Assembly (NCBI GenBank): GCA_044892525.1
Contig: CM097888.1
Span: 28,024,001 to 28,088,000, forward strand
DNA: 64,000 nt
Source: Schmidtea polychroa
Lineage: Eukaryota
Direction: 5' to 3'
A program made the position numbers and the translations under genes. Of the stretch, positions 19,954-59,900 are shown piece after piece. Each line of letters starts with the position of its first letter. The stretch's first letter is position 1. The notes under the pieces were generated by a model that was not told where the DNA came from, ran no database searches, and was given only the letters and a program-made list of their open reading frames with translations.

Positions 19954-19977
19954 CTTATATACTATTTTCCGTCCAAT
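19954..19977 (-). promoter_or_regulatory. LTR promoter: inverted CCAAT box plus TATATAAG
   Basis: ATTGG followed by TATATAAG on the minus strand; conserved in the second LTR at 42419-42442. Confidence 0.55.
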
Positions 19978-38711: not shown

Positions 38712-39250
38712 TGTTGGCGTATGTGGAGAAGAAAAAAAATTATACATGCCTTTCCATCACACCTATCAAGCATCCTGGCTCCGTTATACATTTTCTACAC
38801 ATACTCCAAATGATTGATTGCATATTCCCACATATGAGCCCATGGTGATGTTCCATGTTGGTGCTGCTCACACGGGTCGGAAAAGGTTAGCAGGTGAGCC
38901 CCTGCCTTAGGACTACTCCTAACCCTTTCTCAGTTCGGGTCCCACGGTGCCTTAGAAGGACTTACCCATATACATGCGTGTCACTCGGTCTGATCCTGGT
39001 CCAAAGGAACAACCTTCAACCTTAATTATCTCCATTCCGCAGCATTATCTCATCTACTCTAATTGCGCAAACAAATATATGAAAGCTCGACAAAACTAAA
39101 ATCAAACAGAAAATTTTATTGACACTGAAACGATAAAAATATCATTACTACTAACAGATCAACAACAGTCAAAAAGATATAACATTAGCAACATTCACGA
39201 GATAATTTACAACTCAATGAAGAGGAAATCAAGCTCAATTTTACATCACA

Positions 39251-40012
39251 TTAAACAAAGTTATCCCCATCGGCCAGTATCTCATCTATGTCGACCGGTA
39301 ATCGGCTATCTACAATGTATTTGATGCCCTCAGCTGGAACAATGCGGAAGACTTCCTTTGAGGGGATTGAATGGGAGGACGTTATCTCTTGGATTTTTGA
39401 TTTCGCCGCCGATAAGGACGTCTCGAGTGCTGTCATCGCATCTCGGCGTTTTTGGTTCTTCTCGGCTCGAGTTGGCCGTTTCCGTTTGCGGGTAGTCGGG
39501 GGTTTTTCGGTGTTCGTGGTACCGATTGGTGCTACCAAGATTGGAGCTACGATGGGATCAGTAGGTCCACCTATCTTTGGCTGGTGACATGACAACACCG
39601 GGGGTGGAATGGGCGGCAGTTGTGAGCCGTGCCCCTGGCAGTGCGAGCCGGAAGATGTAGGAGACGGGTGGTGACGAGGAAAGACATTCGTCCCATCCAG
39701 AACGGGGAATTCTCGCACCCGCTTAGCCAATTCTGCCTCCGTATATACCTTATGGAGGGCTTCTGACTGTGCTTTGATGGTGAGCCGCTGACAACGGCTT
39801 TCCTCTAGCAGGCTGTCCCTGCAATGCTCTAATCGGAGAATTTTCTTGCGTTCCTCTTTCATTTGTGGCGGGGAGAACCACGTTCCTTCATAGAGATCAA
39901 TTCTCTTTTTGAGAGCCCCGATATATAAGTGGAGTTGGGCGATATCCGCGTTCTTGTCCGCACAAGAAAAACACGGGCGAAGTTCTTTGGCGTTGTTGGA
40001 CGATGTAGCCAT
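39251..40012 (-). CDS. LTR-encoded 253-aa protein of unknown function (CxxC, coiled coil, Pro-rich linker, basic region)
   Basis: Intact ORF; nearly identical protein in the solo LTR despite many synonymous changes. Confidence 0.8.
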   Translation of the reverse strand: MATSSNNAKELRPCFSCADKNADIAQLHLYIGALKKRIDLYEGTWFSPPQMKEERKKILRLEHCRDSLLEESRCQRLTIKAQSEALHKVYTEAELAKRVREFPVLDGTNVFPRHHPSPTSSGSHCQGHGSQLPPIPPPVLSCHQPKIGGPTDPIVAPILVAPIGTTNTEKPPTTRKRKRPTRAEKNQKRRDAMTALETSLSAAKSKIQEITSSHSIPSKEVFRIVPAEGIKYIVDSRLPVDIDEILADGDNFV

Positions 40013-42418
40013 CTAGAAAATCAATCATTGTTTATATTTACTCGAAGAAACCTCTATCAGTGTGAAGAAAAATCAAATTTTTGGGCATGGTTTTGGAGTT
40101 TGATCAAACATACCACCCAACGATGACCCACACACTTCTTCATCCATCTCTATACGCAGTCATTCAGTTGCAAACATTCAAATCTCTTCACCTGATTCGT
40201 GTAATTTAAGAAAAGGAAACGGGGATTCGTATACCAAAAATTCTTTCTACACAAACCTCGCCCTTTGAGTTTAATTTCGGATGGGCCATTCCCAGGTAAA
40301 ACCCGTCTTTTACTTTATCCCCTTCAACCTTGTTCCCATTAGTATATTTTAATTAAGAATTTTTGCCGATATCATTATGGCAATTCGTCGAGGTAGGCCT
40401 GCCTAACATTACAGAGAAATAATTCACGGCGACGGAATAGATTATTTATGTTTTTATCTCGTTCAAAATTATGGAATTGATCGTGTAATCAGTTGAAAAT
40501 TCAGCTCTAATCTACATCTAATTAATTCCAACAACGCGTCGAAAATCGTCGTCATGGAAAACGTTTACTTGTGATTATGCATTATGATTGACTGTGTAGG
40601 TGTGTCATTACTCCTGGTGGTATCTGTAACTGTATGTTGGCTATCTCCGCGAATGATGGTTTATGCTGTTATGATAAATTATTGTATATCGAGTTGTGTA
40701 GGGGAAATCCATCCCCTTACTTCATCCTATTATCTCGCTATTCTAGAGAAATTTATACCATCATGCCGCTATTACATCACCAAAATCGTTGATTTCCTTT
40801 TACACTGCCCTATGCATATTTGACTGTGGTGCGTGTGTATGTGCATGCTCAAGTCGGAATATTAGCGGTTGCGTAATAGATTCCTCAAATAAGCAGCCGT
40901 AGATGAATCGAAAAATCAGATTAATCAATCTGAGTGGGCGACAACTTCATAGATTATTGGGTAAGCTCAACAATATCATCTAATTTCCTTTTACGATATT
41001 AATTCAGATCAATGACTATCAGCTTATTCATTTGACATTTTCCCAGAAAAGTTAACATGTTATCTCCTTCTCCAGGACGTTATCAGATATCTCCTGTCGA
41101 CTAACTCTACGCAGGCTAATGCAAATCAACTGATTTCGTTATCGTTGACAACTACTGTCTGCGGGCTCGAAGTAAGAATTTTGATAATTTCACTACAAGA
41201 TGTTTACTTCCCTGTCAGCGAGAGATTCTTTATCACTGGCATTGGTGACTCAAGGACGACAATCAAATCGTAAGAGTACATCGACAATGGATGTAGCCGC
41301 TAACATCATGACGGCACAAATCAGACAGAACCTTGTAAACGCAGAGCGTCACCGCAAAATCGTTGGATTTACTTGCAATCTATGGTCGACACCGTTCTTT
41401 CCTAACTACGTCGATTGACCGGCTGAATATCACGAAAAGAATTTTCCTCCTATCTATGTGGATTATCATCGAATCTGTACGAACGTCACTGCCTATCTCG
41501 CTCTGAATTGTCTGCATTCGGAATTCAAATCATCTCTACATCTACTGGGAATCTCGATTTAACTAAATGAACCGATGGTACGCTCTACAGACGATCGCGC
41601 TTGATGAAGGAACGGTCATTTATTAACTGGATGTTCCACCTACTGAGTTTCTTCACCCCTCACGACACACCCAAGAAGGCATTCATTGCTGCCACCTCCT
41701 TGCACCGTCATGAGGGACCAATCAACTCTTTTCCATTCAATCAAATCAACAATATAATAATCAAACTGAATGATAGAAAATGCATAAATAAAATTTACCC
41801 GGCGACCATATCATTTGGATCTCCGAGTATGATGTTGCTCCTCCTACATGATCGAAACCTCATCGTCTCCTTGGTGGATCTCTAATATGACAAATATCAC
41901 TCTCTACAAATATCACATTCTCTTTTCAGCATGTTCGTGATTTCTTATGCATACCAACCTTTCCACGGTGGTGTCCTCTACTGCAGTGCAATTCCAACTC
42001 GTCCACATCATACTGGGAGCTCTCAGATGGTACAGTCGTCGGTACCATGAAGAAAGGCAACTTTTCATTTAAATAAATTTATTATAAGAAATTGTTTTAT
42101 TATATTTATAATGATTAACTAAATTAAACTAATAACCATAAATAAAACAACTGTCGAGGCATACCTTGAGTTTCGAAAACTGAAGTTAAATCGGTTGAAT
42201 TTAAAATTTTTCCCGAATGGATTTGTAGTTTGGCCTCTATATATTTCTTCCTCGGTTTGGTTTGGTAATCTCTGAACTAGTTCGCTGTAGGATAATTAAA
42301 GATTCCGAAATCTGTCAAGTCTGTAGAAAAATTTTTTAAAAGTGGTCGTATATAACGAACCGAAGTTTACCTGTAGAAAAATTTTTTAAAAGTGGTAATC
42401 TACAGATATTTTCCGTTC

Positions 42419-42442
42419 CTTATATATTATTTTTCGTCCAAT
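42419..42442 (-). promoter_or_regulatory. LTR promoter: inverted CCAAT box plus TATATAAG
   Basis: Conserved in both LTR copies; a ~25-bp direct repeat pair lies just downstream in both. Confidence 0.55.
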
Positions 42443-43176
42443 CAGGACACGACTTGTTTGTATTTTTACTATTTATTATTATTTTTATGTTTTTTATTAT
42501 AATATATTAGATTTTAATGACTTAACTTATTTCCTATTATTATTTTATTTATTTTCTTATTTTTATTATTTTCCTCCTATTTTTCCTGTGGATTTATTGC
42601 TACTTTATTGTAATATAATTTTTTGTTTTAATTAGACTTAAAGATAGTTTTATTTTTTATTTATTTCTTAAATTTCTCTTTTATTTGTTGTCACTTTTTT
42701 ACTTATTTTATTCTATTTCATCTGCTGGGTCCTAAATCGCTTTATTTCTAAATCTCAAGGGGTTTATTGGGTTTTATTTAGTTTGTTTTACTTATTCTTA
42801 TTCTCTTATTGATATTTTATTGTTCCTTTTTGATTTATTAGCGAGAATTTGATGGTACTTTATATTTTTATTTTATTTCGTTTATTTTTCAAGGATTACT
42901 TTTCTATTCGCTCCAGTTTTCGAAACTCCACGTTTTAGCCCAACAAATCACTCCGGGGCCCGTTAAAATTGCGCCCCGCAATTCACATAATATCATACGT
43001 TTAACTCATACCTTTTTTCGGCATAACAACTAATTTCACGGTCAACATTCACACAAACATAAAATTAAAATAACTAAATAATACTTTAATTAAACAGATA
43101 AAAGGACAAATATAAGCAAGCAGTGGCCACTTTAGGTGACCGGATTTATACACACAAAGTTTATGAATGGTCGATG

Positions 43177-43803
43177 TCACATGATCTCAAGGTTCGGAAT
43201 GTCTTGGTTGGTTGAATTCTGGGTCGGATGGCTGGTTGAAGTTGTTATCGTGGGGAGCTGGATTGTAACAGGCATTTGGTCAGGAGATAGATTTTGTTGC
43301 ATTTGGTCGGGTGGGTTTGGTTGTTGAAAATATACTGCTCGTTTATGTTTATTTTTCGATCGTGGGTTCTTTCTTTCGTGTTTCTCGGATAGTGACTGGT
43401 TTCTTCTCCATGTTCGATGAATATCATACGCTTTCCAGATGACTAGTGCGCAGATGATAAGAGTTTCACTGATGGTAGTATAGAGTAAGACTTGGCTTTC
43501 TTTTACTTCCTTCTTCATGATGATTTCCTTCAAGGATTGTTGGGTGGTTTGTTCTTGTAAGAGAATTTCGAGCTGTTCGATTTTTTGGGTTTGTAGGTGG
43601 AGTTGCATTTGAAGTTTTTGCCAGACGGCTTTGTTCCAGCATTGTTTCGGGATGTTGTTGGAGAGCTTTCTTTCGCTTTTCAGTTTGGTTAACGGGTTTT
43701 GCTGTTTCTCGGGATTCTCCCAGAATGTTGGGATTGGCTGCCACATGGGTATTCCGTTTATCGCTATCATCATTATTGTCACCAGGGTTGCTCCGAACCA
43801 CAT
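43177..43803 (-). CDS. Accessory ORF, predicted type-I membrane protein (208 aa)
   Basis: N-terminal hydrophobic signal MWFGATLVTIMMIAING; TM LLYTTISETLIICALVIW followed by a basic and then Q/P/T-rich tail. Confidence 0.65.
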   Translation of the reverse strand: MWFGATLVTIMMIAINGIPMWQPIPTFWENPEKQQNPLTKLKSERKLSNNIPKQCWNKAVWQKLQMQLHLQTQKIEQLEILLQEQTTQQSLKEIIMKKEVKESQVLLYTTISETLIICALVIWKAYDIHRTWRRNQSLSEKHERKNPRSKNKHKRAVYFQQPNPPDQMQQNLSPDQMPVTIQLPTITTSTSHPTQNSTNQDIPNLEIM

Positions 43804-43858
43804 ACTACTATACGAAAATTTTTATTTACAATTATTTACATTGATCATTCATCTTTAA

Positions 43859-44560
43859 TTATTGCCGGGTTTTCTTTTTACGGGTTTTCTCGGATGTTCT
43901 CATCACTCTCGTTTCTGCTTTTATTACTCGTTTTCTCAATTCGGGTAGTACTTTTAATTGTTTGTCTCTTTCGTCTAACTGTTGCCTTAGGGTTATTATT
44001 TTTTCTTTTAGTGCTTTTATTTCTTGTGTTGCTCTTTCGAGGTTTTTATGGTTCATTATCTGTAGAAAATCATTTTCCCTTTCCCCGTCTTCTTCGTTGT
44101 CTATTTCCTGGTATTTGTTGTTCATTCGTCTCATTATCTCACATTCTTTCTGTTTTTGGTGTAGTTGGAGTTGTAACTCTTTCAGGCTTTCTTGGTGTTT
44201 CCGTGCCTCGGTTTTCCAATAGTCACTAATCACTTCGTCGGCCTTTCGACTGGCCCTCTCCTGCCATAATTCTTCCGCGATCTTTTCCCAATTTCTCCCT
44301 CGCTTTCTTTGCTCGTGAAGCCATTCGTTTTCTTTCTCTACTTCTTTCTTTACTCCTTCTAACAAGATATATTCTCTTTTCAATACTTTAATCCTTTTTC
44401 GATTATCTCTCCACCTTTCAACTAATCTTTCGTTTTCCTGTCTCTCTTCTTGTAATTCTTCCTTGATAGTTTTCTTCCTCTCCACTTCATCAACTTCAAT
44501 TTCTCCCTCTTCTAACTCGATTATAGATGTTATGCTGGGTTGTCCGTTTTCAGTGTTCAT
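43859..44560 (-). CDS. Accessory coiled-coil protein (233 aa)
   Basis: Intact ATG ORF, E/K/R-rich heptads, same A-rich strand bias as the polyprotein. Confidence 0.7.
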   Translation of the reverse strand: MNTENGQPSITSIIELEEGEIEVDEVERKKTIKEELQEERQENERLVERWRDNRKRIKVLKREYILLEGVKKEVEKENEWLHEQRKRGRNWEKIAEELWQERASRKADEVISDYWKTEARKHQESLKELQLQLHQKQKECEIMRRMNNKYQEIDNEEDGERENDFLQIMNHKNLERATQEIKALKEKIITLRQQLDERDKQLKVLPELRKRVIKAETRVMRTSEKTRKKKTRQ

Positions 44561-44734
44561 TTTCTATAATATATACATAATTAATAATTGCGCTACAGTG
44601 CGGCTTATACTTATACATTTATATGTTATTTTATAATCAGGGTTACAGTCCCTTTCATACTTTTACTGTACCATTAATTTTTTTGGTTGGGATACAGGTC
44701 CCGATTTTTATATTTTTTATCTTTCCTTTTATCT

Positions 44735-45772
44735 TTATACAAAGGTCTCTTCCTGGCCTACATATCCCTCATCGCTTTCTACTGACGTTTGTAATTGGAG
44801 TGCGATGGGATCAAATGGGATGTAGTACCGGGGAATCTGCGCTCTAAGTTCTTGCACTTCGTCTCTTAGTGCTCTTGACACGTTAAGTTCCTCGTCCAAC
44901 AGGTATGTTAGATACCTGGTTTCATCGTCTCTTACCTCTATCTGTTTTTCTAGCTCTTCCGCTTTTTCGCCGTTTTCCCATTTCTTGATCTCTATCTCCA
45001 GATTTTTAAGATTTTCGTTATACATTTTCCTTTCGTTTTCTAACTTTTTGTTTTTCCCCGCCAGTACCATATTTCTCTGCTCCAGAGCTCCTTGGTATCC
45101 GTTGACATCTCGTTCTAGTTCTGCGACCTTATTCACCAGTTCCACGAGTCGTCCTGACTGTTGAAGTATCAGTTCTTCCATTGCGGCATTCTCGTGCTCC
45201 CTTATGGAGATTTTCATGGCTAGATGTCTTTCAAATTCCATGGCTTTGGTCTGCCATGTTTGGCTTCGGGCCGCAATCTTTCTGAGCCGTTTCAGTTCTT
45301 CTCTCATGACCAGATTTTCCTCCCATTTGCCTTGTTCGCTTTCGTATTCTAATCTCATAGGCAATTCTTTCATTTCTTTTTTCATCTCTTTGTTCTGCCG
45401 CTTCCAGTTTCGGGCTTCTGCCAATAGGTGATTCATTTTCCTTCCTTCCTTTTGTTTTTCTGCTTCTCGTTTTGTGTTTTCGTCCGTCAATCGTTTCCGT
45501 GCTTCCTGCACTAACTGTTTTAAATAGTGGCTGTGCGCTTCTTGGCGAGTGTTTTCCAATGATGCCCACTTAGAGGCTCTTTTGCATGCTTCTGCTTCGG
45601 CTCTTAAATTGTTTACTAACCACTGATATTTGTTATTCTCGTATTCCCTGGCCTCTTCGAGATGGTTGTGGGTCTGGTTCGTCAATTGTAACATTACTTT
45701 GACCCATTTTCCCTTATGGATTTTATTGACTTTGGTTTCGTGGTTTGGGGCTTCAGTTCCTTCTTGTGTCAT
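44735..45772 (-). CDS. Accessory coiled-coil protein (345 aa)
   Basis: Intact ATG ORF, long heptad-rich helical sequence. Confidence 0.72.
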   Translation of the reverse strand: MTQEGTEAPNHETKVNKIHKGKWVKVMLQLTNQTHNHLEEAREYENNKYQWLVNNLRAEAEACKRASKWASLENTRQEAHSHYLKQLVQEARKRLTDENTKREAEKQKEGRKMNHLLAEARNWKRQNKEMKKEMKELPMRLEYESEQGKWEENLVMREELKRLRKIAARSQTWQTKAMEFERHLAMKISIREHENAAMEELILQQSGRLVELVNKVAELERDVNGYQGALEQRNMVLAGKNKKLENERKMYNENLKNLEIEIKKWENGEKAEELEKQIEVRDDETRYLTYLLDEELNVSRALRDEVQELRAQIPRYYIPFDPIALQLQTSVESDEGYVGQEETFV

Positions 45773-45992
45773 CTTTGTCTAAATAACGATATCATTAACT
45801 TAACGTTGTACGCTTATATCTGGTTTATTAGTTATTTATTTTTATAATTCGTTATAGGAGTTGTTTTAGGAGTTTTTCGCTTAAGTTTACCTTTGGTAGA
45901 TTTGGGGGGAATTTTTCTACACTACTATATAATATTTTACTGGATATATACGCCGATATTTACAATTAGTATATACAAAATTATTCGTCTCT

Positions 45993-47381
45993 CTACTCAG
46001 TCCTACTCTTCCCGTCTCGCCTCACCGCTATTTTCATGTATATAGTGTCGTTTCTCGTCATGTCTTCTACTTTCCGCTGTAGGATGAAATTTGGTGCTCC
46101 AGTTGCTGGTCCTTCTTCTTCCAAGGGCCTTTGGTAACATACGAGGTTTCCCGCTGTATGGAAACTCTGTTCGTGTATACTTTGATAGTTCATCATTGCG
46201 AGGTCTATTTTTGCTTTGAATGGCCATTCTATTAACTCGTCGTATGGCCCTTTGCACATCAAGAAGAATACTGAGAAATGCGTTCCGTATGCACTTCCAT
46301 CCCCATTGGGGTATGCTTTCATTTTCATTTTATACCCGTTTTTCCATGAGTAGAATGCTGGACTTAGTAATGTTGTATCCTTTCCATTTCTCGCTCTCTG
46401 CATCTTCTCTTTTACTCCCGTTATTTTCCATATGTACGGAGCCGTAGGTATTAATTCGTTGAGGTTTAATTCGCTTACTTTTTGATGTAGTTCTTTCACC
46501 ATAATGTTGCTAGTTTCTACTAGATCTGTCTGTATCTTTGTACTTGTTCTCGCCTCTTCAAATGCTTCCTTTTCTTCCAATAGTTCTTTTACCAACGCTT
46601 TTAGCGAGACTATTTCTCTTTCTAAGTTTTCGGTTTTCCTTTCGTTTTCCTGTAATACCGTTGACCATATTTCCGCGTGTGTTGATACGTTTTCTGCTAG
46701 ATGTTGGGGTAATTCCCCTCGGTGTAATTGTTTCGGACATCCCCATTTTCCTAGCACACACGTTATCTTTTTTCTTTCACACTCTTTTAGATGTTGAGCG
46801 AGTTTTATTACTCCGGGTTTATCGCATTTGTTGGGGCATTCTCCTCTGAATTCTGCGCACACTTTCTCCTCTTGTATGTTGTGATGTTGACTGATTAGTT
46901 TCTTCCAGGTGTCGTTTTCTCCGCAATACTCGCATTTCTCTAGTCTTTCTTCGCATCGACTTTGATGTTCTGCTTCTTCATTGACTTTAATCTCTTCTTG
47001 GCAACGTTTGCATTGACTGATTTTATACTCACATTGCTCCATATGTTGCCTCACTTCCCATATCACTCCTCGCCAATTACATGGGGTGTTTTTACATCCT
47101 AGGTTTGCATTCAACATATCTTTTACAGCTGCTTTATCTTCGTTTGTATCTCCCAAACTTGTTATCATTGTTTCTTTGCATACTGGGCACCATTGTGGTC
47201 CCTTCTTTATTATCTCCTCTACACATTCTCTGCACATTCTGCATCCACATCTGGTTTGGTGAGGTTCTCTTAATAAGCTCTTGCATATTCCACACGTTAC
47301 ATGGTTGTGTATTCGAATTGTGGTGGACTTTCTGATTTGTTCAACAATTTCTCTGAATTCTTCTCGTTGTCGCTTATCCAT
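45993..47381 (-). CDS. Intronless TRAF-family protein (RING, TRAF zinc fingers, coiled coil, MATH), 462 aa
   Basis: CGICKSLLREPHQTRCGCRMCRECV..CPVC; zinc fingers HMEQCEY..CKRC; MATH YIWKI..SPAFYS..GYKMKM..YPNGDG..GTHFSVFF..KGPYDELIEWPF. Confidence 0.95.
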   Translation of the reverse strand: MDKRQREEFREIVEQIRKSTTIRIHNHVTCGICKSLLREPHQTRCGCRMCRECVEEIIKKGPQWCPVCKETMITSLGDTNEDKAAVKDMLNANLGCKNTPCNWRGVIWEVRQHMEQCEYKISQCKRCQEEIKVNEEAEHQSRCEERLEKCEYCGENDTWKKLISQHHNIQEEKVCAEFRGECPNKCDKPGVIKLAQHLKECERKKITCVLGKWGCPKQLHRGELPQHLAENVSTHAEIWSTVLQENERKTENLEREIVSLKALVKELLEEKEAFEEARTSTKIQTDLVETSNIMVKELHQKVSELNLNELIPTAPYIWKITGVKEKMQRARNGKDTTLLSPAFYSWKNGYKMKMKAYPNGDGSAYGTHFSVFFLMCKGPYDELIEWPFKAKIDLAMMNYQSIHEQSFHTAGNLVCYQRPLEEEGPATGAPNFILQRKVEDMTRNDTIYMKIAVRRDGKSRTE

Positions 47382-47470
47382 TTCTATAATTATATATATA
47401 CATATATTCGTTACTGGTACAGTTTCGTATTTTTATTTACATTTATTTACATTGCTATTTTAGGTTATAT

Positions 47471-47830
47471 TTATTGGCTGGAAGAGTCGGCCTCTTGTCC
47501 GCCCTCTTCCCTGTTGGTTAACCATTCTGACCAGTCTTCTATCTCCTCTCGCTCCATCTCTTCCGCGATTCTTATTAACTCCTCTTCTTGCACCTGGCTG
47601 TATCGTGATATTCGGTCTATCTCTCGCTGCATTTGTTCTATTTTCATTCGTTGGTCTTCGATTATTCTTACATAATTGAAGCCTTTATTTAAACTTTCGA
47701 CTAAGCTTCTTTGTACAGCGAGTCCTTGTTCCTGTAAATTCGAAATCACTTGAGTTAACATTGCACATTGTTGTTTCCACATCTCCTCGGTTGTTGTACT
47801 GTGGTTTACTTCCTCGCCTATTCGCTCCAT
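47471..47830 (-). CDS. Accessory small coiled-coil/acidic ORF (~119 aa from ATG 47830)
   Basis: Open frame 47471-47854; first ATG at 47830; helical, acidic C-terminus. Confidence 0.55.
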   Translation of the reverse strand: MERIGEEVNHSTTTEEMWKQQCAMLTQVISNLQEQGLAVQRSLVESLNKGFNYVRIIEDQRMKIEQMQREIDRISRYSQVQEEELIRIAEEMEREEIEDWSEWLTNREEGGQEADSSSQ

Positions 47831-47998
47831 TCTTAATTTATATATACTTTTCAATCCTTATCTAATTTTATTTTCATATTAATTATCCCCATCATTATAT
47901 ACTATTGATACCGCGCTTATATAAAAATATAGAATACTGTTATATAAATAAATATTTCCTACTTACTTTTTACAATCTATATACAGTCATAATCCTTT

Positions 47999-50900
47999 CT
48001 ATATACGTGAGCTTGGAGGGCGCTGAGCATTCCAGGCCTCCACCCACTGTTCCTGCTTGATATTACTTGGTCGTTTTACACGATGTTGAAAATTTCTTAT
48101 TCTGGCCATTTCTAGTTCTCCGTGATGCCGTCTATCTTTGATTATTTTTATTGTCCCCCCCGTTATGATTAAAAAGGCCCCTGTTATTATTATGCCGCTG
48201 ATCCACATCATCTGTTTTATGCTTATAATTTCCGCTTTTTCCTTGCTCGTTATTGTTGATATTGCTTCTGTGCTTTTTAGATTACCGTCTTTGCCATTTC
48301 CTTTCATCATTCCTCGTATTCTTGCTATTTCCTCGTTCATACCTTCCTTTGCCATTTTTTGTATTTTCTCCATCTCCTCCTCGGATACATAATTGTCTTG
48401 ATGTTTCTCACTGTTTTTCTTGCGTTTTCCTTGCTCATCTTTTTCATCATCGATTTTTCTTTTCTTCCCTCTTTTCCCAGGGTATCGTCGACATTCTCTC
48501 GCTGTATCTTTTCTCCAGATGCATATTGTGTATTCTTTTGGAGGTTGTTGCTGTATTACATATTGTAGACAGTCTTCACCCGGTCTTAATCTTGCGATGC
48601 AGACTTTGTGTTCTTTTCTTGGCTGGAGTTGCGTTATCACTACCTCACCTCCTTTTCCCAGGTGTACCTCCTTCCCTTTGACTTTCGTTATTCTCTTTCC
48701 TTCTCGATTTCGGTATGCTTCTTGTATTCTTACTTCCGTTATTGGTTCTGCATCTTCATTTTTTAACACTAGTCTCTGATAAGCTCTAGACATACATCTT
48801 CCTAATATACACCTTTCTTTTAAATCCCATTCTTCTTTTAGATCCCATTGCTGCTCTTGTACTTGTTTTTTCTTTTCTTGTTTTAGTTCTTCCTCTTTGT
48901 TGTCCTTATTTTCCGTTTCTTTGGCTTCTTTTATCGTTCTCATTCCTCCCTGGGCTGTTATCATTTCCACCATTGTTAATACGAGTATCATTATCATCAT
49001 ATTTGTCTCCATTTCTTTGTTGGTAAAAAGTAGACATACCCTCTGTTTTCCACTATTCGTCTTTTCTTCTTGCTTTATTCGGTTTCTCGGGTTGTTTTCC
49101 TCTTTTTTCCTACTCGCGTCGTTATTTTCTTGATTATTCTCCTCTGATTTCTCTTTCTCTTTATTCCCGTTTCGACTTTTTTCATTATTATCGTCGTCTT
49201 TATCGTCTTTATCTCCCCCGCTATCGTTTATAATGTCGTCCTCGACATTTATATCATTCAACAATCTGCGGTATGCCGTTAGCACTCTGTTTCTTGCTAA
49301 TTTTGCTTCGAGTTCGAACTCCTTTCTGCCTGTTGCTACATGTCTCTTTCTATTCCATTCTTTCACTAATTCTCTTAATTGTATCCGACGATGTTTCCCG
49401 ATTCGCTTTTGTTCGTTTAGATTCTGCGTGAATTTGAGATCTTCCCTGTTTAATACGATCATTATGATTTTCGGAGTTCCTCCTTTTGTTAGTGTATTTT
49501 TAACCATAGCATTTTCTCCGTTTTCGTAGAACTCATTTATATTTATTGCATATTTATTGCTTTGTGGTATTCTCCATGTTAGCAGCAACTTCATGGCTTC
49601 TAAGTTCATCCGTATCGTGTTCCATTGGAACTGTGACGTGTTTTTACAGATATTTTCTACCTCAGTTCTTGTAGCATTTTTACAAATGAATCTAATCATT
49701 TCCAAGTTTGGTTGTATTGTTGCCCAATCCATGGCAGAATTTCCTTCGTTTGATATTTCGTCAAGTCTTGATCCCGATCGATGTAGTATATGTAATGTTT
49801 TCGGGTGTATATTTGTTATGGCTGCATACATCATTGCTGTTTCTCCTTGTTCATTTTTTGCATTAGATTCTTCTCCGAAGTCTCTAAGGATTCTTATGAT
49901 GGTTATTGCTCTGTTTTCTTTTGCTGCTAAAATGGCTTGTTGTAATGGTGTTCTTGAGTCTTTTGTTGGTAAGGTGAATGCTAGTGGTATAAATGTTTTT
50001 ATTTTTCCTATGTCTAGATTTGTGGTCTGATCTCTTGCGTAGGTGTGTACTGTTTTGGTTATTTTTGCTAGTATCGCTTCATCGGATAGATCTTGCATTT
50101 CTTCAAAGAATACTTCTTTAGCCTTACGTACTACTATCTCTTGGTCGGAGTTTATTGTCTTTGGTTTACTTGTTGTTGCTATATCGGTTATTGGTTGATC
50201 GACTTGTTCCTCAGACTCTCTTGCTTTTACTTTCTTCCTTTTTATCTTTTTCTTGTTCGAATTGTTAATGCGTTCCTCTGCCGTTAGAACTTGAATAATG
50301 CTTAGGTAAGTTTCTCGAATGTTGTTCATATTTTCCATCATATATAATACATTCACGGTTTCCCAAAATTTTACTTGTACTTTATCGGTAAATTGAGATA
50401 TAGCTTTTTCGAAGTTGATAATTCGTTTTCTGATTAGTTGTTCGTCTTTGTGATTTGAGAACTTTATGCCACGTTGTAGTAGTTGATTTGGAATTTCGAA
50501 TAGGTGATGTCCTCTCATCGCTTCTCTCATCAAGGTATTTTCTCCTTTGGTAAATGTTTCGTTTATATCTACCATATAATCGTTTTTGATCGGGTTCCTC
50601 CATGCAATTAGTATTCCAGTAATTGTTATTAATTTCTCTTTGATTGCAGTTAATAGCCCGTCATACATGTTTCCTATCTCTCTATTATCCTCATATGATA
50701 ATAGATCTACTAAGATTATGAAGGCTTCCGTACTTTTCCCTTCGATTGCATGATGTAGTGCATTTTTCTGGTTGTGGTCTTGTGTGGTTATCTTTGACCC
50801 AGTTTCAAGTAATGCGATGATAATATCTTTAGCTTTATCCCGATTGGCTGCTATCATTAGTGGAGTGTAACCTTGGTTGTTTTCTTGATCTGTCGAAATG

Positions 50901-53900
50901 TTACAATCGCGAAATGCTTCAATTGTTTCTAATATCTGTTCGTTACTACCCACCTTTAAAAGCTTGTGCAGGGGTGTGTCTCCGTAATGGTCTGTGATCG
51001 TGAATAATATAGGCCATTGACTTTTAACTACCCTGAGCAATGGGTGTGTTCTTTCTCGGTTTGCATAATTTTCGATCATTGTTAGCAGACCTCCCAATAT
51101 CTCAAAATCTAATCTGTCTTCTGCCCATCCGGGCATTTTAACTTTTACTTCCTTTATGATTTTCTCGGCTTCTGATGGTTGTAACCCTAATCGATTACCT
51201 GTTGGTTCGTTTATTTGCTGTAACATGTTTATTCTATACGTTTGTGATCTTGTCGTTAGTGTACGTCCTTCTGGTTGACTGGTGGCGGTTTTCGGAATTG
51301 GCTTACATCGTGCAACATTTACGTATATTGGTCTTGTAAAAGGGTTGTTCACTAATCGTACTCTTACATTAGTTTCTCCGACGAATAGAATCTCATACGG
51401 CCCTTTACCGTTTCGTTGTAATTTTTTGGTGGTTCCTGGAATTAATTCTGGTGTTTCAATCATCACCCAATCGCCTGTTTGAAACGTATGCTGTTTGACG
51501 TTTTTCTTTCTATCATGTAACTCTTTGTAACTTTCTTGATAAAATTTTATATTCAATCCTGCGGTTTCCCAGATTTCCTGCATTCTTTCCTTGAACTTGG
51601 TTACATAATCGTCTATTTCCATGTATTGTGATATCGGTGGCTGATATTCTAAATCCATTGGCATATTGCATTCTCTGCCGTACATCAACTTGAACGGACT
51701 CATCTTTGTGGACGCGTGAATCGACATTCTGTAAGCCATTAGACATAATTTTATATATTCATCCCAGTCTCGTTGATGACGATCGACATAATTTGATAAC
51801 ATTTGAATCAGTGTTCCATTGAATCTTTCTGTCATACCATTAGTTTGTGGATGGTACGGTGATGTTCTTAATTTTGCGATCTTGAAGTAGTTGGTGACTT
51901 CGCTCATTATTTCGCTCATGAAATTCGTTCCTTGATCCGTCAGTATTTGTTTCGGCGTTCCATATCGACAACATATTTCCTCTACTAATATTTTTGCGAT
52001 TGTTCTTGCTTTCTGATCTGCCATTGCGAATGCTTCGGGGAATTTTGTCAAATAATCTGTGATTACCAATATATATATATTTCCTCTATCTGATTCTGGT
52101 AGTGGACCGACTACGTCCATTGATATCATTGTCATTGGTTCTGCTGGTACTGGCATTGGCTTTAATGGTGCCTTCCATTTTGTTCCCGTGTTTTTTCTGG
52201 TTGCGCAAGTTATGCAATTTTTCACCCATTCCGTTACATCCTCGGTCAATGTAGGCCAAAAATATTTTTGTTTCATTCGTGCCAACGTCTTTTTAGATGA
52301 CATATGTCCTCCGAGTCTTCCGTCATGGTATTGTGTTAGTAGATCTTTACGTCTATTCTCGGGAATGCACATCAGTCTTTTCTCGCCATCCATTATCAAT
52401 AACCAATCTTTCTCGATAATATATCGATGTCGATGTTTATCCATATGCTCCTTCAATTTTTGATCTTTCTCATATACCTCTGCTTTCCCTGTTTTCGCAT
52501 ATTCAATGATTTGCTTCAACTCTGTATCCTCTTGTTGGTCTTTCCGTAATTGGCAAAAATCTAAATCTTCTGCTACCATCAGACATATTCGTTGCATTTC
52601 GTGATCTACTAAATCTGGAAAGATAAATCTGGACATACAATCCGCATTGGCATTCGCTCTTCCCGCTTTGAATTTTATGAACGGTGAATATTCTTGTAAC
52701 TGCATTGCCCATCGCATCAATCTACTTGAAGCTTCTTTGTGTTGACCAAGCCATACTAATGGTTGATGATCCGTGGTGATACATATTTCGTGTCCCCATA
52801 ACAAATATCGAAAATGTTTAATTGCTTGTATGATTGCTAACGCTTCTCTCTCGGTTACGGAATAGTTTTTCTCGTGCTTTTTAAACGTTCTACTGTAGTA
52901 TCCAATCACTCTTTCTTTTCCTTCTTCATCCAGTTGTCCTAATATTGCTCCGGCTGCATATCCACTTGCATCTGTTGCTAATAGGAACGGTTTCTTGAAA
53001 TCAGGATGTACTAGTATTGGGGCTTCAATTAATTTATCTCGCAATGTCTCAAACGCTTTTTGTTGTTCTGCACCCCAAATAAATGAAATATCCTTTTTCA
53101 CTAATTCCTGTATTGGTTTCGCAATACCTGCATAGTTTTTGATGAATTTTCGATAATATCCGCATAATCCGAGAAATTCTTGAACTTGGGTGACAGTTTT
53201 TGGTGCTGGACATGTTTTTATTTTTTCTATGTTTCTTGGATCTGGTTCTTTGCCTTTTGCTGACACTATGTGTCCTAAGAACGTAACCTTTTCTTTTGCC
53301 CAATCACATTTGGATGGTTTAAGTTTCAGTTTCCATTGTCGTAATCGAACGAACACGTTTCTGATATCTTCCAAATGTTGTTCGAAAGTTGCTGAATATA
53401 TTAATAAATCATCAATATATACCATACATTGCTTGATCCCGTGTGTGACAAAATTCATACATCTCTGGAATGATGCTGGGGCATTGGTCAGTCCGAACGG
53501 CATTTTCCTGAATTGGTATAGATCTCGGCCCAATGTGAATGCTGTTTTCTCTTTGTCTTCCTCCTTGACTTTGATCTGCCAATATCCACTTTTCAGATCT
53601 AAAGATGTAAAATATGCGGCCCCCTGTAACATAAGTAACATCTCATTGATGTCTGGTAAAGGGTATGTGTCTCTTTTTGTTACTGCATTTAATTTCCGAT
53701 AATCGATACAGAATCTCTGAGTACCGTCTTTTTTCTTCACCATGACTACTGGAAATTGCCATGGCGAACAACTTGGTTCGATCACTTGTGCATCTAGCAT
53801 TTTTTGTACTTCTGCTTCGGCTATCTCTTTTTGCTTCTCTGCTAGTTTGTATGGACGTAGTGCGATTGGAGTTTCGTCTATTAATGGTATTGCGTGTAGT

Positions 53901-56900
53901 GTAACATCGCATGCTCCCAAATCTAAATCCGAAATTGCGAATATATCTTTATATTCTATCAATAATTGTTGAAGTCTCTCCTTTTCTTTTTCCGTTAGCA
54001 AGGTGCTATCAATTATCCATAATTCGTCCGCTTTCGTTGTTTCGTTGGTGATTTTTGGTAATTCGATGTCTATCATGGGTGTCAATCTACCCAATCTTTC
54101 ATTTTCATATATGATCTTGTCTTCTTCCTCGAAATTTGTGATGTTAATTGGTATTTCCCCGTCTTCATTTATTGTTATTATTTCTCTTGCTAATGGTAAT
54201 TCTCGTCGTTTTTCGAATGATTTGCTTGGCTCAAAAATGACTTCTCCTTCCATTCCTGCATCCACTTTTATTTGACATATCATCTGTGATTTTGCGGGTA
54301 CAATTATTTTCTCCGGACATCTAATTATTGCGTTCATCTTGCATATTCTACCCATTTTGTCTTTTAGACACATTGTTGTTAAATCGATTACTACTTCCTT
54401 AAACAATTCCGGCATTAAATCCGTTCCGATTATACATGGTTCACTCAGTTTGGGTATCACCGCTAGATACGTTTCAATTTCGTTATCCTGATATCGTAAC
54501 GTAGTCCACCATCTTCCTACTACGTCTACGGTTTCTTTACTGCATGCAATAATATGGATAGTTGTTTGTTCGATATCTTTCCAACATTTACTGGGTATTT
54601 GGTTTATTGCTATTGCTGATACGTTTGCTCCGGTATCTATCATTGCGCTTGTCTCTTTCCCGTTGATTTGGATCATGACTGTTACTGCCGCACCTCCTGG
54701 TGAACTCATCACTGCTATCGTTCTTACGTCGTCCGCTTGGTCTACACTTTTCGTTCTTCGGGTCGGCATATAGTTCATCCCTGGTTGACTTGGTAACTGT
54801 GGATACATATTTTGTGTCATGGTCAAAGCTGTTTGTTGTCCAACGATATCTGGTGGTATATAACTTCCGTTGGCTATCCAGGTATTTGTTTTTTCTTTCT
54901 CCCAATATGGTGCTGTTTCTATTGGCTTTTCATTCGGGTTTCTACTTGGATATGGGTATTTGTCATTCCCGTTGTCGTCATCATCACTATCGCTGCTGTT
55001 TGATCGATTCCTAAATCTGTCTAAGAATTTTGGTTTGTTCTTTTTCAGTTGCGTCCTTGTTGCTTCATCATACATTGTTTTCCGAAATCGTCTACCGACT
55101 TCCTCGTCAGTTCCTTTTATTTTTGTCAGTATTTTGATCAATCGTTTTATTCTATGTATGTCTTTAGAATGACCGTGCAACACCATTGTTTTTGCCAAAA
55201 ATGGTAGAAAGCCTACTATCAATTTCCAATTTACCTTCTTTTCTCTCTTATAGATATCAAAACACGCTAACATTTGAGTCAATATTACTCTAACTATCTG
55301 GATAATAAGAATGATTCCCAATATTCCTGCCATCATTTGACCGAACACTAGAAATCTTCCCCACATTGCTTTCATCATGTTTGACGTGGCTTGTTGAAAA
55401 TGATCAGGTGACAATAATAGTTCGTAATTGGGGCCTGACTGGAAATTCGTTCCCCCAGTTATGGTAACCATATTCGATAGAATGGATTCCCGTCTTGCTG
55501 GGAATAATACGTTTAATCGTGCCGTTTCTAAATCCTCTGGTGAGTACATACCTGCTTTTGACACATCAATTGGTTTGAAATCTTGTTCTGTTGCGAGTTC
55601 TATTAGTCCAAACTTTTTAGGCTCTTGTACTTCGGTTTTTACTGGTAACATTATCCATTTCCCATCGGGTTTTTCATATAACGGTCCGTATGCATTTGAA
55701 CAGTTAAAGGTGTTCGGATAAAATCCAATTGGGTTCATGATTCGAGTGACGGGTTGAACGAATCTGTTTCGCCCTTTGTAACTAATTTCCAACTCGTTTG
55801 CGCATTTCCCTGGTGGAATTGTGGGCTTTCTTGGCAGTCGCGCAAATGTCTTGGTACATGCATATGTATACATTACCTCTCCCACCATTCTACCAAAATG
55901 TCCATCCGGTAACGGGAGTGATGGCATTGTGTTATCTGGGTGTGTTATTGCGATGGCTAATTTTGTTTTTAGTATCTCTTTATTCAATGAACAGTCATTT
56001 TGTATAAGATCGTAATACACTTTTTGCATTGTCGTTTGTCCTCGGTGGAACAAGAAGTCCATCTTATTATTGGCATACAGGTACAATTTTACGTCCTCCG
56101 TTGCTACCTTTCCCACTGCTCGGTCTATTACTTGCCTTGACATGTAGATACCTGCGTAGTTCGTCCGGTATACTATACTGTCACATTTGGTGGTCTCTTT
56201 TTCTCTAATGAATCTCATGCCGATGTCTGGATCATCGGTAATTAATGCCGTTGGTGTTTTTTGGGTTGTGAGTCTCTTTTCTTTGGGGGATGGCGGAACT
56301 GGTTTCCCATTTCGCATCCTTACGTTTCCATTCTCTTCATCGTCATCCTCGTTTTCGTAAATTTCTCCTTTTACTTCATTGAATAGAGCACTTTTTAACA
56401 ATTGGAGTCGGCATTTTTGGGTGTTAGCTTCATATATTATAGTCGAAATCCCCGTTCTACACACGTTTTCCGTAGCTCTGCATGCTGGGTTGGTTTTCAT
56501 TTGATAGTTGTTTGCGTCGAATTGTGCTTCGTATTCCTTCAACTCCACTGTGTAGGACTCAATTACTACTACTCCTGATATCACCTCTCCTCTGATCGTA
56601 TATGTGCCTCCGTTACATGATCCATCCGTTGATTTTACTCGTCCGGCTACATAGATACTTTCCGTCTTGATCATTCCGCTTTGTCCGTGTATTGTTACTC
56701 CATCCCTGATTCTCATCGCTCCGGTTCTAAAAAGCTCTTTACAGTCTTCCCGTTGTATAGGTACTATTTCTTTATCTAATCCAGGTAATATGAGGGTTGA
56801 ATATGAGTATTGTCCACAGTAATATGCCAACACTTTCTTCGATACTACGCATTCTCTAGCTTGCGTTCTAATGAAATCTGATTCTTGGTATACGTGATAG

Positions 56901-59900
56901 GAGACTTTCTTTTTTACTATATCTAATTTATTCGGAGACGCCTGTCTACATTCCTCTATATCTCTCAGGGAGTATCTTTCTCCTATTATCGAATTGTCAC
57001 AGTCGTAAATAGTAAATCCCGCGGCTCCACTGGTGCAGAGCATCCATATCATCATGGTCATCATTAGTGAATTAATCGACGCTTTTCTGCTGGCTGGGTC
57101 TTTCAATGGCAATTCCCATTCTAGCTTGTTTAGTAATTTCTTCAACCGAATTTGCATTGATCTCTCTTGCTCGTTTTTTCGTGGCGCTTGTATGAGTCTT
57201 TTCCACCCACCGGCGCGGATAATATGTGGTTCGATTGTATTTTCGATGATTGTAACGGTCATTTCTACATGATTTGCGAATTGTTTGTTAGGTATTTTCC
57301 TCGCTGCTAATCCCATCAAATTGTACATTAGATACGTTAATACTACTAAATGATGTTCGTCGTCGTTTGCGTTTAAAGTTAATTGTTCAATTACTCTTCT
57401 TGTCTCTTCCCAATCGGTTTTAGTGGTTTTTGTCTTCTCTTTGATTAATTTCGGAATTATTCCGGATATTGTATTCCATAGTTGTCTGGCGTCTACGCTT
57501 GCTACTTTTCGTTGCCATAACCGTCGCAATTGTGGGTTCGTTATTATTAGCATATCTTTTACTAGCTCTCGTATCCATTTTTCGCCTCTTTCGATAGTTG
57601 GCTGGGCCTCTTTTAGATCCCACACTATTTTATCCAGTTTCTCTAATCTGACTTGTCCTTGTTCTTGTTTCAGTTGTTCTCTAGTTTTAAATTCCGGTTT
57701 TTCTCCTTGCTTCTTGGGTCTCCCTTTTGCCCGTTTTTCCATCATTGTTCCGGCTTCCCTTGTATTTTCATAATTCGGGTTTCTCTCGTTATCCGTTCTT
57801 GGCAATGAGCTATCGTTGTTTCTCAGCCATTCGTTCCATTCGTCTATTATTTTGTCCGTTTGACCTTCTGGTGTTGCTTTCGTTGGTCCTTTCTGTCGTT
57901 GGAATTGTTCGTCGGTTTCGGTTTCTGTTGTATTATCGATAATCTCCTCGATACTCAGCTTATTTGGCTGCTGATAGCTAGTTGACGGTTGGCTTGTTGT
58001 CCATATTTCGGCTCCTGTCGGCCATCTTACCAGAATTGGTGATCTTTCTCCAGCTCCTTCATCGCTGTCTTCCAATATAATTTCCTCGATTTCCTCGGTT
58101 TCATTCGTTTTACTTGCCACTTTGTTAGGGCTTGGTGTACTCAAGCTACCTTTCGTAGGTTTACTGGATTTGCTCTTCCTTTTAATCGGTTTTCCCAATG
58201 TTTCTGCCATTGTCAATACATTGATCTCCCCCAATCTCATGGGTGTTATTCCGACATCTGCATTATCATCCAACGATTTTCCGAATAGTTGTAGGTGAAA
58301 TGGAGTTTCGTATGCTAATTTCTTTTTTAACTCTCTGATCTTTGTTGTTGGATGTACTTCTGTATCCTCAATGCTTTTGTCGGGATACTTGACTCGGATA
58401 CGATACCTTTCCTGGGTATCTTGTGCCCATTCTTGGTTTCTCCATTTCCTAATAATTTGTTCTAGCTGTTCTGGGTACCATTCGTTATATTGTCTGTATT
58501 CCTCAATCGCTTTCGCCATTTCTCTTAGATTGTGGATATTCTCTGATGTCTTTAGGATGATGTTAGCCAATGCTATTACTTGACGTTTTTGATTTTTTGT
58601 TCCCGTTGCTAAGATATCACCTAATTGTTTATATCTTTCCTTCTCTTCTCGTTCTCGAGCTTCCATCGCTTCTTCGCTGTCCATATCGGCATATTCGCGT
58701 TCTTTCTTTCTCATCGCATGAATATGTCTGGTTTCCGTTTCACTTTCTGATGTAACATCCGTTTCGCTTTCGTCGTCCGATGTCGATTCTATTTCGTCCT
58801 CTTCGTATTTTGGAGGTTCATCTTCCTCTTCTTCTGATTCGCTTTCTATCTCACCAATGTCTGTTTCCACGAAAATCCCTTTCCTGATTTCCCATTCTTT
58901 GTTTTCCGCATTCCACGTCCTTTCCCATGGGGTTCGTCTGCAGGATCTAACACTTAGTTTCTTTATTTTTCCTTGAAGCTCTTTTTCTTTTAGCCACTGT
59001 TGATGAATTTCAATTATCTCTACTGATTTTTGATATAGCGTTTTCATCCTGTCTCGTATTTCTTTCTGGTATGTTATATCTCTTGTTCGGAATTCGTCCA
59101 TGGGCAATATTCTGATGATTTGATGATTATCCCACATTCCCATTTCGCTTAGCGAGGTGTCGTCTTCGGCCCGTAATATTATTTTATCGTACATCATGAC
59201 TACGTCATCTATCATCCCGTCGCTACTCTCGCTTCGTACTTTTTCCGTTATCTCTTGGTTTATCTTGGTTACTAAGTCATCCACCGTACTCTGATTACTC
59301 ATCTTTATTCGTCGTTTCTCCTCGTTTGGTAACCATATGGTTATTTCTAATTTCTGCGGTTGCGTTTCTTTCAACCTTCCATATTTGTGGATCAAATTTA
59401 TGGTTCTCCAATCGCTCATCCTGAGCAATTCTGTATCTCGTAATCGGCTCATTAGTTCATGCATGTCTGGAGTTCGTCTTGCTATGAGTAAATCCCAGTT
59501 ATCTTCGACTTGTTCTTGAATTTGTTTGATTAATTTATCTAGATTTCGTCGCAAGGTGCATTGTTTTATTTGTTCCAGCTTCAGCTTGATGTTAAAATCA
59601 TACTCGGCCTTGGCGTCTTTAGCCCATTCGTGAATATTTGCTGGTTGCTTCTCTTTATACAATTTCAATATTTGAGTTTCTCCTGGCCAGATCAATGCAT
59701 CTATTAGGTGCATGTCTGGCTTAATTTGTTCTCCTTGATATTGATATAAATACTCTTTCTTTCTCGAGCTGCCCAAATGTTCTCTTATCCAATCAAAAAG
59801 CTCGTCTGTGACTGCATTTTTTATCCATATTCTCTCGAGTCCTTTACTCGTTCCGATTTTTATTACATAGCGTGTTGTCTCCGCTTGTTTCATTTTTTCC

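What the first reader, a model, noticed from the sequence alone, without database searches (positions are those of the whole stretch)
39251..40012. Protein-coding gene inside the LTR under strong purifying selection
Seen: the two diverged LTR copies encode proteins differing at only 2 of ~100 residues from LRPCFSC to TNVFP, while one 22-codon stretch (ADKN..RID) has 10 synonymous and 0 nonsynonymous changes. Architecture: CFSC, coiled coil, Pro-rich linker, basic RKRKRPTRAEKNQKRR, short heptads. It lies ~2.4 kb downstream of the LTR TATA box behind a conserved acceptor (with a CTAAC branch-like motif in the solo copy). Inference: a nuclear regulatory protein that even solo LTRs could express.
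Basis: partly seen in the sequence, partly recalled or inferred. Interest (0 to 1): 0.72.

Follow-up and report, generated by a model that had tools for sequence, protein, structure and literature searches.

The report
Orphan gene inside giant retroelement LTR
A giant virus-like jumping gene carries, inside its own terminal repeat and downstream of its likely start site, a strongly conserved protein-coding frame with no known relative, which is predicted to be spliced into its own short message and likely makes a nuclear protein that switches the element on.

Summary
Observation confirmed to the digit: the 253-codon frame at 39251-40012 (minus strand) lies in the 4.2 kb 3' LTR of an intact 30.5 kb Burro-like Ty3/gypsy element; the two window copies differ at 2 of 102 core residues against about 51 synonymous changes. 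Across subfamilies dN/dS is 0.07-0.19; a distant family keeps the frame at 34-37% identity in the same place. No homologue was found in any library. Sequence anatomy puts the gene downstream of the inferred transcription start (R or U5, not U3 as MMTV sag), behind an ATG-depleted leader, a donor, a 2.15 kb intron with a covarying hairpin, an acceptor abutting the ATG, and before its own poly(A) signal. The protein is a predicted coiled-coil dimer with a basic helix and an acidic tail. Best guess: an early nuclear trans-activator (0.4); Rev-like export is the main rival (0.25). No RNA or peptide evidence was obtained. The window's own solo LTR copy is frameshifted. The scan noted this gene before on another piece of this genome (e1-9240899, Rev-like reading). 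Two key Burro papers could not be read.

The parts
38712..42945 (-). 3' LTR (4234 bp, TG..CA) of a 30.5 kb Burro-like element; 4-bp target duplication CCAT
39251..40012 (-). LTR gene, 253 aa: CxxC (C14, C17), coiled-coil core 15-101, Pro/Ser linker 113-173, basic helix 175-190, acidic-hydrophobic tail 237-253
42420..42442 (-). Promoter: inverted CCAAT box and TATA box, shared by near and distant families
42371..42396 (-). Predicted exon 1a, starting at the inferred transcription start about 30 nt after the TATA box
   Evidence: duplication starts 29-30 nt after TATA in 25 of the 30 LTRs that have it
42321..42370 (-). Predicted 50-nt mini-intron whose tail duplicates exon 1a
   Evidence: 30 of 36 LTR rows
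42165..42320 (-). Predicted ATG-free leader exon 1b, ending at donor-like site D2
40013..42164 (-). Predicted 2152-nt intron, donor D2 to the AG that abuts the ATG
   Evidence: no RNA confirmation
42078..42083 (-). AATAAA (candidate poly(A) signal 1, candidate end of R), inside the predicted intron
   Evidence: 14 of 14 LTRs in this zone; AT-rich, no null computed
41797..42050 (-). Long-range inverted repeat (stem A) seen by eye in the LTR alignment
   Evidence: not scored
41645..41728 (-). Conserved hairpin B with compensatory changes (packaging or export element candidate)
   Evidence: no Rfam family
39115..39120 (-). Candidate poly(A) signal 2, about 130 nt after the stop codon
   Evidence: AATA[A/T/C]A in 14 of 14 at 142-156 nt before D3
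38959..38965 (-). Conserved donor-like GTAAG (D3), about 250 nt before the LTR end
   Evidence: 13 of 14
16207..20480 (-). Solo LTR of a diverged subfamily, duplication ATAT
16750..17495 (-). Frameshifted copy of the LTR gene in the solo LTR (16-nt deletion near codon 141; 153 aa)
47999..62425 (-). 4808-codon Gag-Env-Pol frame with CCHC knuckles, weak Bcl-2, fusion glycoprotein, PR, RT, RNase H, integrase, ankyrin
43177..47857 (-). Five accessory frames between polyprotein and 3' LTR, including RING-TRAF-MATH (45993-47381); four have an AG within 10 nt before the ATG

Best explanation
The frame is a conserved accessory gene of a Burro-like LTR retroelement, predicted to be spliced from the LTR promoter into a short self-contained message and likely to encode a dimeric nuclear protein that activates the element's own transcription. 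Shown from sequence: the frame sits in both LTRs, is under strong purifying selection, lies 2.4 kb downstream of a conserved CCAAT/TATA promoter and has no detectable relative. Inferred: transcription starts near 42396; a leader of about 180 nt is spliced at D2 (42164) to the AG at 40013, skipping poly(A) signal 1 and the hairpins; the message ends at poly(A) signal 2; being fully spliced and independent of the internal region it would be the earliest product. Predicted: residues 14-93 form a parallel coiled-coil dimer capped by CxxC. Guessed by analogy: the basic helix gives nuclear entry and nucleic-acid contact, and the acidic-hydrophobic tail recruits co-activators, as foamy-virus Tas does for its LTR.
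For: Selection: dN/dS 0.065-0.19 for 15 copies at 77-82% identity, 0.18-0.37 for 9 copies at 88-96%; mean pN/pS over 45 pairs of 10 copies is 0.063 in the core, 0.11 in the basic helix, 0.24 in the tail, 0.37 in the linker. Five copies of a distant family keep the frame at 34-37% identity and the same LTR position. Of 16 stretches chosen by an internal-region match, 11 hold the frame, 10 of them full length. Splicing design: 4 ATG in 3331 nt of predicted leader over 14 LTRs against 45 expected, the most depleted of 64 triplets, with leaders only 41-69% alike; 138 against 75 expected just inside the intron. Dimer: complex score 0.61, best of 3 controls 0.09; the mark was reached by 21 of 30 proteins solved as pairs and 0 of 23 single chains; on eukaryotes 17 of 29 (animals 7 of 16; 1 of 7 without an older solved relative) and 0 of 30 single chains; runs agree in 100% of contacts, pLDDT at least 83. 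Tail: net charge -3 to -7 in the last 22 residues in 13 of 13 copies, with a shared hydrophobic-D-hydrophobic-x-E-hydrophobic-hydrophobic pattern across both families. No NES consensus match is shared by the two families, which favours this reading over Rev.
Against: No transcript, junction, peptide, localisation or activity data. No sequence or fold match to Tas, Tax, Tat or any transcription factor. Donor D2 was picked by eye in each copy; TG-containing triplets are also low in the leader and in U3 (ATG 16 against 42 in U3), so part of the ATG deficit is compositional. The most conserved part is the coiled coil, not the basic or acidic segments. Coiled-coil dimers can score from memory. The acidic activation-domain pattern is recalled, not tested with a predictor. 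A covarying hairpin in the intron fits a Rev-type design equally well.
Confidence: 0.4

Rival explanations
1. Rev/Rex-like post-transcriptional switch: the protein binds hairpin B or another structure in the intron through its basic helix and lets intron-retaining genomic RNA escape splicing, 5' polyadenylation or nuclear retention.
For: Arg/Lys-rich helix with pN/pS 0.11; hairpin B has 28 pairs, 8 with compensatory change in 9 copies, and lies in the intron removed from the protein's own predicted message; two candidate poly(A) signals each paired with a donor must be bypassed in the 5' LTR; predicted oligomer. Same reading in unchecked note e1-9240899.
Against: No NES consensus shared by both families; one distant copy has none at all, and near-family matches fall in coiled-coil heptads. 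The distant family has a different hairpin. A hairpin downstream of the major donor is as well explained as a packaging signal or a host-factor export element. PMC3694450 (Background) states that no retroviral protein is known to affect polyadenylation.
Confidence: 0.25
2. Host-directed modulator: a nuclear coiled-coil adaptor that counters silencing, apoptosis or innate signalling, like the element's other cargo genes.
For: The element carries RING-TRAF-MATH, a Bcl-2-like segment, ankyrin repeats and a RING gene; Burro1 is PIWI-controlled (PMC8532177, passages) and its IAP-like protein protects stem cells (Lee 2026 as cited in PMC13465017). The near-invariant dimer surface suggests a fixed partner.
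Against: No host homologue or domain match, unlike the other cargo genes; nothing points to a host target.
Confidence: 0.22
3. Structural or replication factor: a particle-associated, nucleic-acid-binding protein that helps package, or copy across, the unusually long (3.7 kb) R-U5 segment or brings the integration complex into the nucleus.
For: Basic helix plus dimer; the smaller env-bearing family with 1.06 kb LTRs lacks the gene, so gene and long LTR go together in 1 of 1 comparison with a clear full element.
Against: Gag already has CCHC knuckles; an acidic tail and an early spliced message are not needed for this role; the gene itself is part of why the LTR is long.
Confidence: 0.1
4. Not a working gene: the conservation reflects a DNA or RNA element or recent copying.
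For: No expression evidence; four codons (F46-P49) are also invariant at synonymous sites in 10 of 10 near-family copies.
Against: Synonymous sites are near saturation (pS about 0.7) while residues are kept; third-position bias 62 of 83; frame kept at 35% identity; flanking LTR sequence is barely alignable.
Confidence: 0.03

Closest known systems
Burro / GYPSM1 giant gypsy-like LTR elements of planarians (PMC6431247, section 7 read whole)
   Same: Over 30 kb, one polyprotein near 4.8-5.1 thousand aa with env in frame between gag and pol, Bcl-2-like and ankyrin motifs, TRAF/MATH, accessory ORFs.
   Different: That section describes no gene inside the LTR. Here TRAF is a separate frame downstream of the polyprotein, and no BIR domain was hit in the 8 proteins scanned. 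Grohme 2018 and Lee 2026 could not be read and may annotate the LTR frame.
MMTV sag and HIV-1 nef, genes in the LTR (PMC12789967, passages)
   Same: Coding sequence duplicated in both LTRs, expressed from spliced RNA.
   Different: Both lie in U3, upstream of the start site, and are read from the 3' LTR; this gene lies downstream of the inferred start (R or U5) with its own acceptor and poly(A) signal, so one LTR would suffice. No sequence likeness.
Foamy virus Tas and HTLV Tax trans-activators (PMC12789967, passages; domain layout recalled)
   Same: Early regulatory product of a spliced message in a complex retroelement; basic and acidic segments (recalled for Tas).
   Different: Encoded between env and the 3' LTR, not inside the LTR; no homology found; activity untested here.
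Rev / Rex / Rem export proteins with their response elements (PMC12789967, passages)
   Same: Basic helix, predicted oligomer, structured RNA in intron-retaining transcripts.
   Different: No conserved leucine-rich export signal; 253 aa with a 90-residue coiled coil; no homology.
Additional ORFs of plant LTR retrotransposons such as Grande gene23 (PMC7264820, parts 1-2 of 3 read)
   Same: Orphan proteins conserved like gag-pol, some nuclear, function unknown.
   Different: Those lie in the internal region, mostly between pol and the 3' LTR, often antisense.

Membership tests
Burro-like giant Ty3/gypsy elements | Total length over 30 kb with long LTRs | tested here: met
   30.5 kb, LTRs 4.2 kb
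Burro-like giant Ty3/gypsy elements | Single giant polyprotein with env in frame between gag and PR-RT-RH-IN, plus ankyrin | tested here: met
   gag 236-329, fusion glycoprotein 2054-2393, protease 2583, RT 2896, integrase 3428, ankyrin 3833
Burro-like giant Ty3/gypsy elements | TRAF/MATH, Bcl-2-like and BIR cargo | tested here: inconclusive
   MATH E 8e-25; Bcl-2 only E 0.095; no BIR hit; RING gene present
Burro-like giant Ty3/gypsy elements | Sequence identity to named Burro1-4 | not testable with these tools
   No Burro sequence was available
U3-encoded LTR genes (sag, nef) | Frame lies in U3, upstream of the transcription start | tested here: not met
   Frame starts 2414 nt downstream of the conserved TATA box and about 2380 nt downstream of the inferred start; start site inferred, not mapped
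Rev/Rex/Rem | Arginine-rich RNA-binding motif | tested here: inconclusive
   Conserved mixed Lys/Arg helix; could be a nuclear localisation signal only
Rev/Rex/Rem | Conserved leucine-rich nuclear export signal | tested here: not met
   No consensus match shared by both families (consensus classes recalled)
Rev/Rex/Rem | Structured response element in intron-retaining RNA, bound by the protein | tested here: inconclusive
   Covarying hairpin present; binding not testable
Tas/Tax/Tat trans-activators | Sequence or fold homology | tested here: not met
Tas/Tax/Tat trans-activators | Activates the cognate LTR promoter in trans | not testable with these tools
   Needs a reporter assay
bZIP factors | N-x7-R/K-x9-L basic region followed by a leucine zipper (consensus recalled) | tested here: not met
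   N186 is followed at +8 by T194; heptads after the basic helix are absent in the distant family; no Pfam bZIP hit; Atlas bZIP rows score only 0.77 and 0.83

The most novel reading that the evidence does not exclude
The LTR is itself a complete spliced gene: promoter, ATG-free leader, intron carrying the genomic RNA structures, a new protein family and a poly(A) signal all lie inside it, downstream of the start site. Every intact 5', 3' and solo LTR, likely hundreds to thousands in this genome, is then a free-standing source of a nuclear trans-regulator that controls the full elements and possibly host genes, which makes solo-LTR formation a way of amplifying a regulator instead of disabling the element.
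Probability: 0.3. Interest if true: 0.82.

Novelty: new variant of a known kind. Interest (0 to 1): 0.62.

Why it matters
LTR-borne genes that I could document (sag, nef) sit in U3 and need the rest of the provirus or special promoters. A gene placed downstream of the start site, inside R or U5, forces a 3.7 kb first reverse-transcription product and a read-through of two candidate poly(A) signals, and makes solo LTRs potential coding units. The protein has no relative in the libraries searched. Burro1 is reported to support planarian stem cells and regeneration (Lee 2026, seen only as cited in PMC13465017), so how such elements regulate themselves is a live question, and this gene is a direct RNAi and reporter target in a tractable animal.

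Tried and rejected
Expression: no RNA holder listed. Four runs only guessed to be RNA and one unlabelled run, all contigs, were laid on the LTR: no joint matched the predicted splice; coverage followed sequence conservation and included U3, so these calls say nothing for or against expression. Homology: none in Pfam, the 5.8-billion set, metagenome contigs, PDB sequences (best E 0.16); the 1.84-billion representative search gave 2 hits, both repeat proteins whose scores are sums of 9 and 6 weak stretches (a TPR protein and a tandem repeat), rejected. Atlas hits all under 0.9. Foldseek: none at E 0.001 in PDB or viral models; the wide structural search never ran. Rfam: nothing. Spliced (intron-less) LTR copies: none among 10 outlier copies; L094 has an upstream deletion of about 1 kb, not examined further. 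A conserved donor inside the frame that would fuse it to Gag: none. Exchange of the LTR gene for the RING gene in L062: rejected, it is a deleted and rearranged copy. A TAR-like hairpin at the start site: rejected, its 5' arm lies upstream of the inferred start. Selection on solo copies after insertion: 13 5'/3' pairs gave only 3 changed codons (2 synonymous, 1 not), and private changes (core ratio 0.06-0.08) come from copies picked by best score, so this is undecided. R versus U5 could not be decided. Papers not held: Lee 2026 and Grohme 2018; their text and supplements may already annotate this frame.

Full report
Observation. The frame at 39251-40012 on the minus strand is open for 253 codons. 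It lies in a 4234-bp LTR (38712-42945), the 3' LTR of an element whose 5' LTR lies just beyond the window; the two differ by 1 mismatch and 1 gap and are flanked by the duplication CCAT, giving about 30.5 kb. A diverged solo LTR lies at 16207-20480 with the duplication ATAT. In the core there are 51.5 changes at 70.4 synonymous sites and 3.5 at 235.6 non-synonymous sites, p 9e-38.

The element. The internal region holds a 4808-codon frame with gag, CCHC knuckles, a weak Bcl-2 match, a mononegavirus-type fusion glycoprotein, protease, RT, RNase H, integrase and ankyrin repeats, and downstream a RING-TRAF-MATH gene and four more frames. A 159-aa RING gene lies behind the 5' LTR. This matches the Burro/GYPSM1 elements of planarians as described in PMC6431247 (passages; section 7 whole). 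The planarian-like host is my inference from this likeness.

Larger sample. A genome search gave 7051 first-look candidates; of the 150 best, 145 have no internal stop (biased to intact copies). An internal-region probe gave 1157 candidates, as expected if solo LTRs are in excess. Against the window type, dN/dS is 0.065-0.19 for 15 copies at 77-82% identity and 0.18-0.37 for 9 copies at 88-96%. Over 45 pairs of 10 diverged copies pN/pS is 0.063 for residues 12-112, 0.11 for the basic helix, 0.24 for the tail and 0.37 for the linker, with pS about 0.7 throughout. Of 16 stretches chosen through the internal region, 11 hold the frame, 10 full length and 1 rearranged; of the other 5, one has the region deleted and four showed no LTR in the stretch. 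Five of the 11 belong to a distant family at 34-37% identity, with the frame at the same place in the LTR. A smaller env-bearing family with 1.06-kb LTRs lacks it. Nine of 20 fetched LTRs are solo copies with an open frame.

Where in the LTR. An inverted CCAAT box and TATA box are shared by both families. Right behind them a 24-30-nt unit is duplicated around a 45-52-nt GT..AG mini-intron in 30 of 36 LTR rows (3 copies have a single unit, 2 rows were anchored on the wrong site, 1 failed the repeat test); the two units match within a copy and differ between subfamilies, and the match begins 29-30 nt after the TATA box in 25 of 30. I had noted the duplication; the idea that the second unit is rewritten from the 5' end of spliced genomic RNA comes from the unchecked note e1-8146218. 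If right, the boundary marks the start of genomic RNA near 42396, and the gene lies downstream of it, in R or U5. About 230 nt after the start, each of 14 LTRs has a donor-like site (D2, picked by eye). The leader up to D2 has 4 ATG in 3331 nt against 45 expected, the lowest of 64 triplets, although leaders are only 41-69% alike; the first 240 nt after D2 have 138 against 75. U3 is also low (16 against 42), so the deficit is partly compositional. An AG lies 0-1 nt before the gene's ATG in 12 of 14. An AATA[A/T/C]A hexamer follows the stop codon in 14 of 14, 142-156 nt before a GTAAG site kept in 13 of 14. A second AATAAA lies inside the predicted intron in 14 of 14 (AT-rich, no null). Each signal thus has a donor nearby: upstream as in foamy virus, and downstream as in HIV-1, the two layouts by which U1 binding suppresses 5' polyadenylation (PMC3694450, Background read). 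The intron also holds a hairpin with 28 pairs, 8 with compensatory change in 9 of the 11 near-family copies tried, unknown to Rfam. All of this is prediction; contigs of five public runs showed no matching joint and cannot decide.

The protein. No relative was found; the two hits among 1.84 billion representatives are repeat artefacts. AlphaFold2 gives helices 15-41, 50-101 and 182-213 with disordered linker and tail (core alone pLDDT 81) and no fold match. Two copies of the core fold as an in-register parallel dimer over residues 14-93, score 0.61 against a best control of 0.09 (21 of 30 paired and 0 of 23 single-chain proteins reach the mark; on eukaryotes 17 of 29 and 0 of 30, and only 1 of 7 without an older solved relative; contacts agree 100%, pLDDT at least 83). 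Both families keep C14, C17, GTWFSP, EHCRD, a basic helix centred on [ST]RAE[KR] and an acidic-hydrophobic end (DIDEIL, DLDELL; net -3 to -7 in the last 22 residues). No export-signal consensus is shared by the two families, and the bZIP spacing (recalled) is not met.

Mechanism. Shown: a selected coding frame inside the LTR. Inferred: a three-exon message of about 1.1 kb made from the LTR alone. Predicted: a dimer. Committed guess (0.4): a nuclear trans-activator made early from the fully spliced message, by analogy with Tas (PMC12789967, passages; the basic-plus-acidic layout is recalled). Rivals: Rev-like export or processing switch acting on the intron hairpin (0.25, also the reading of note e1-9240899; the missing export signal and the alternative of a packaging signal lower it), host-directed modulator (0.22), particle or replication factor (0.1), no working gene (0.03).

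Novelty. Genes in LTRs are known in U3: all of MMTV sag and part of HIV-1 nef (PMC12789967, passages). Orphan extra frames of plant elements lie in the internal region (PMC7264820, parts 1-2 of 3). Nine searches (listings only unless named above) showed no description of a gene in R or U5 or of a Burro LTR frame. Grohme 2018 and Lee 2026 were not held; of the latter I saw only citing passages in PMC13465017. Passages of PMC8532177 and PMC11410931 add nothing on the LTR. The scan itself noted this gene, the common leader, the mini-intron and the hairpin on other pieces of this genome, and an LTR gene in another genome; these are unchecked notes, not support. Verdict: real, a new variant of a known kind (accessory gene of a complex LTR element, in an unusual place, with a protein of no known family), function open; interest 0.62.

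Noticed in passing
window 42321-42396 (-) and 29 other LTR rows: 50-nt mini-intron whose tail duplicates exon 1a and changes in step with it; three copies (L037, L039, L060) have a single unit and no intron.
   Followed up: partly
window about 42152-42185 (-): A degenerate inverted copy of the LTR's own 5' end lies just before donor D2; best hit at this place in 14 of 14 LTRs, above 30 shuffles in 8 of 14. Possible 5'-3' pairing of genomic RNA or relic of an older LTR end.
   Followed up: partly
window 39866-39877 (-), codons 46-49: FSPP codons are invariant even at synonymous sites in 10 of 10 near-family copies but not in the distant family: an overlapping DNA or RNA signal.
   Followed up: no
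window 62194 (-): An ACG codon with A at -3 and G at +4 opens a conserved, Met-free 108-codon stretch before the polyprotein's first ATG in 8 of 8 copies; the frame upstream is not kept. Possible non-AUG start of Gag.
   Followed up: partly
L031:1533-2009 (-), just beyond the window: 159-aa RING gene (PF13920, E 6e-8) between the primer site and gag, behind an acceptor-like AG; kept in the distant family; no BIR hit.
   Followed up: partly
window 38712-39020 (-): Highly conserved block at the LTR end with repeated GGGCTCA motifs resembling the primer-binding site that follows the 5' LTR after a short spacer (tRNA-Pro likeness recalled).
   Followed up: no
window 35488-38711 (+): The giant element is inserted into the integrase region of an older, broken Ty3/gypsy element.
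   Followed up: no
L066 and G000:C1 152.8-153.5 Mb: Cluster of similar rearranged copies; L066 has a 215-codon open frame lacking the CxxC start and the linker.
   Followed up: no
window 23704-28473: Inverted arms enclose a Tc1/IS630-like transposase frame (23879-25042) and a hAT-like frame (26612-27865); names recalled from motifs, not searched.
   Followed up: no
window 63089-63448: Tandem units of about 80 nt in the leader before the polyprotein.
   Followed up: no
window 2886-9306 (-): Exon-like frames that resemble a TFIIIC large subunit (recalled, not searched).
   Followed up: no
L067-L071: A second env-bearing Ty3/gypsy family: 17.7 kb, 1.06-kb LTRs, 3334-codon polyprotein, no LTR gene.
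   Followed up: partly
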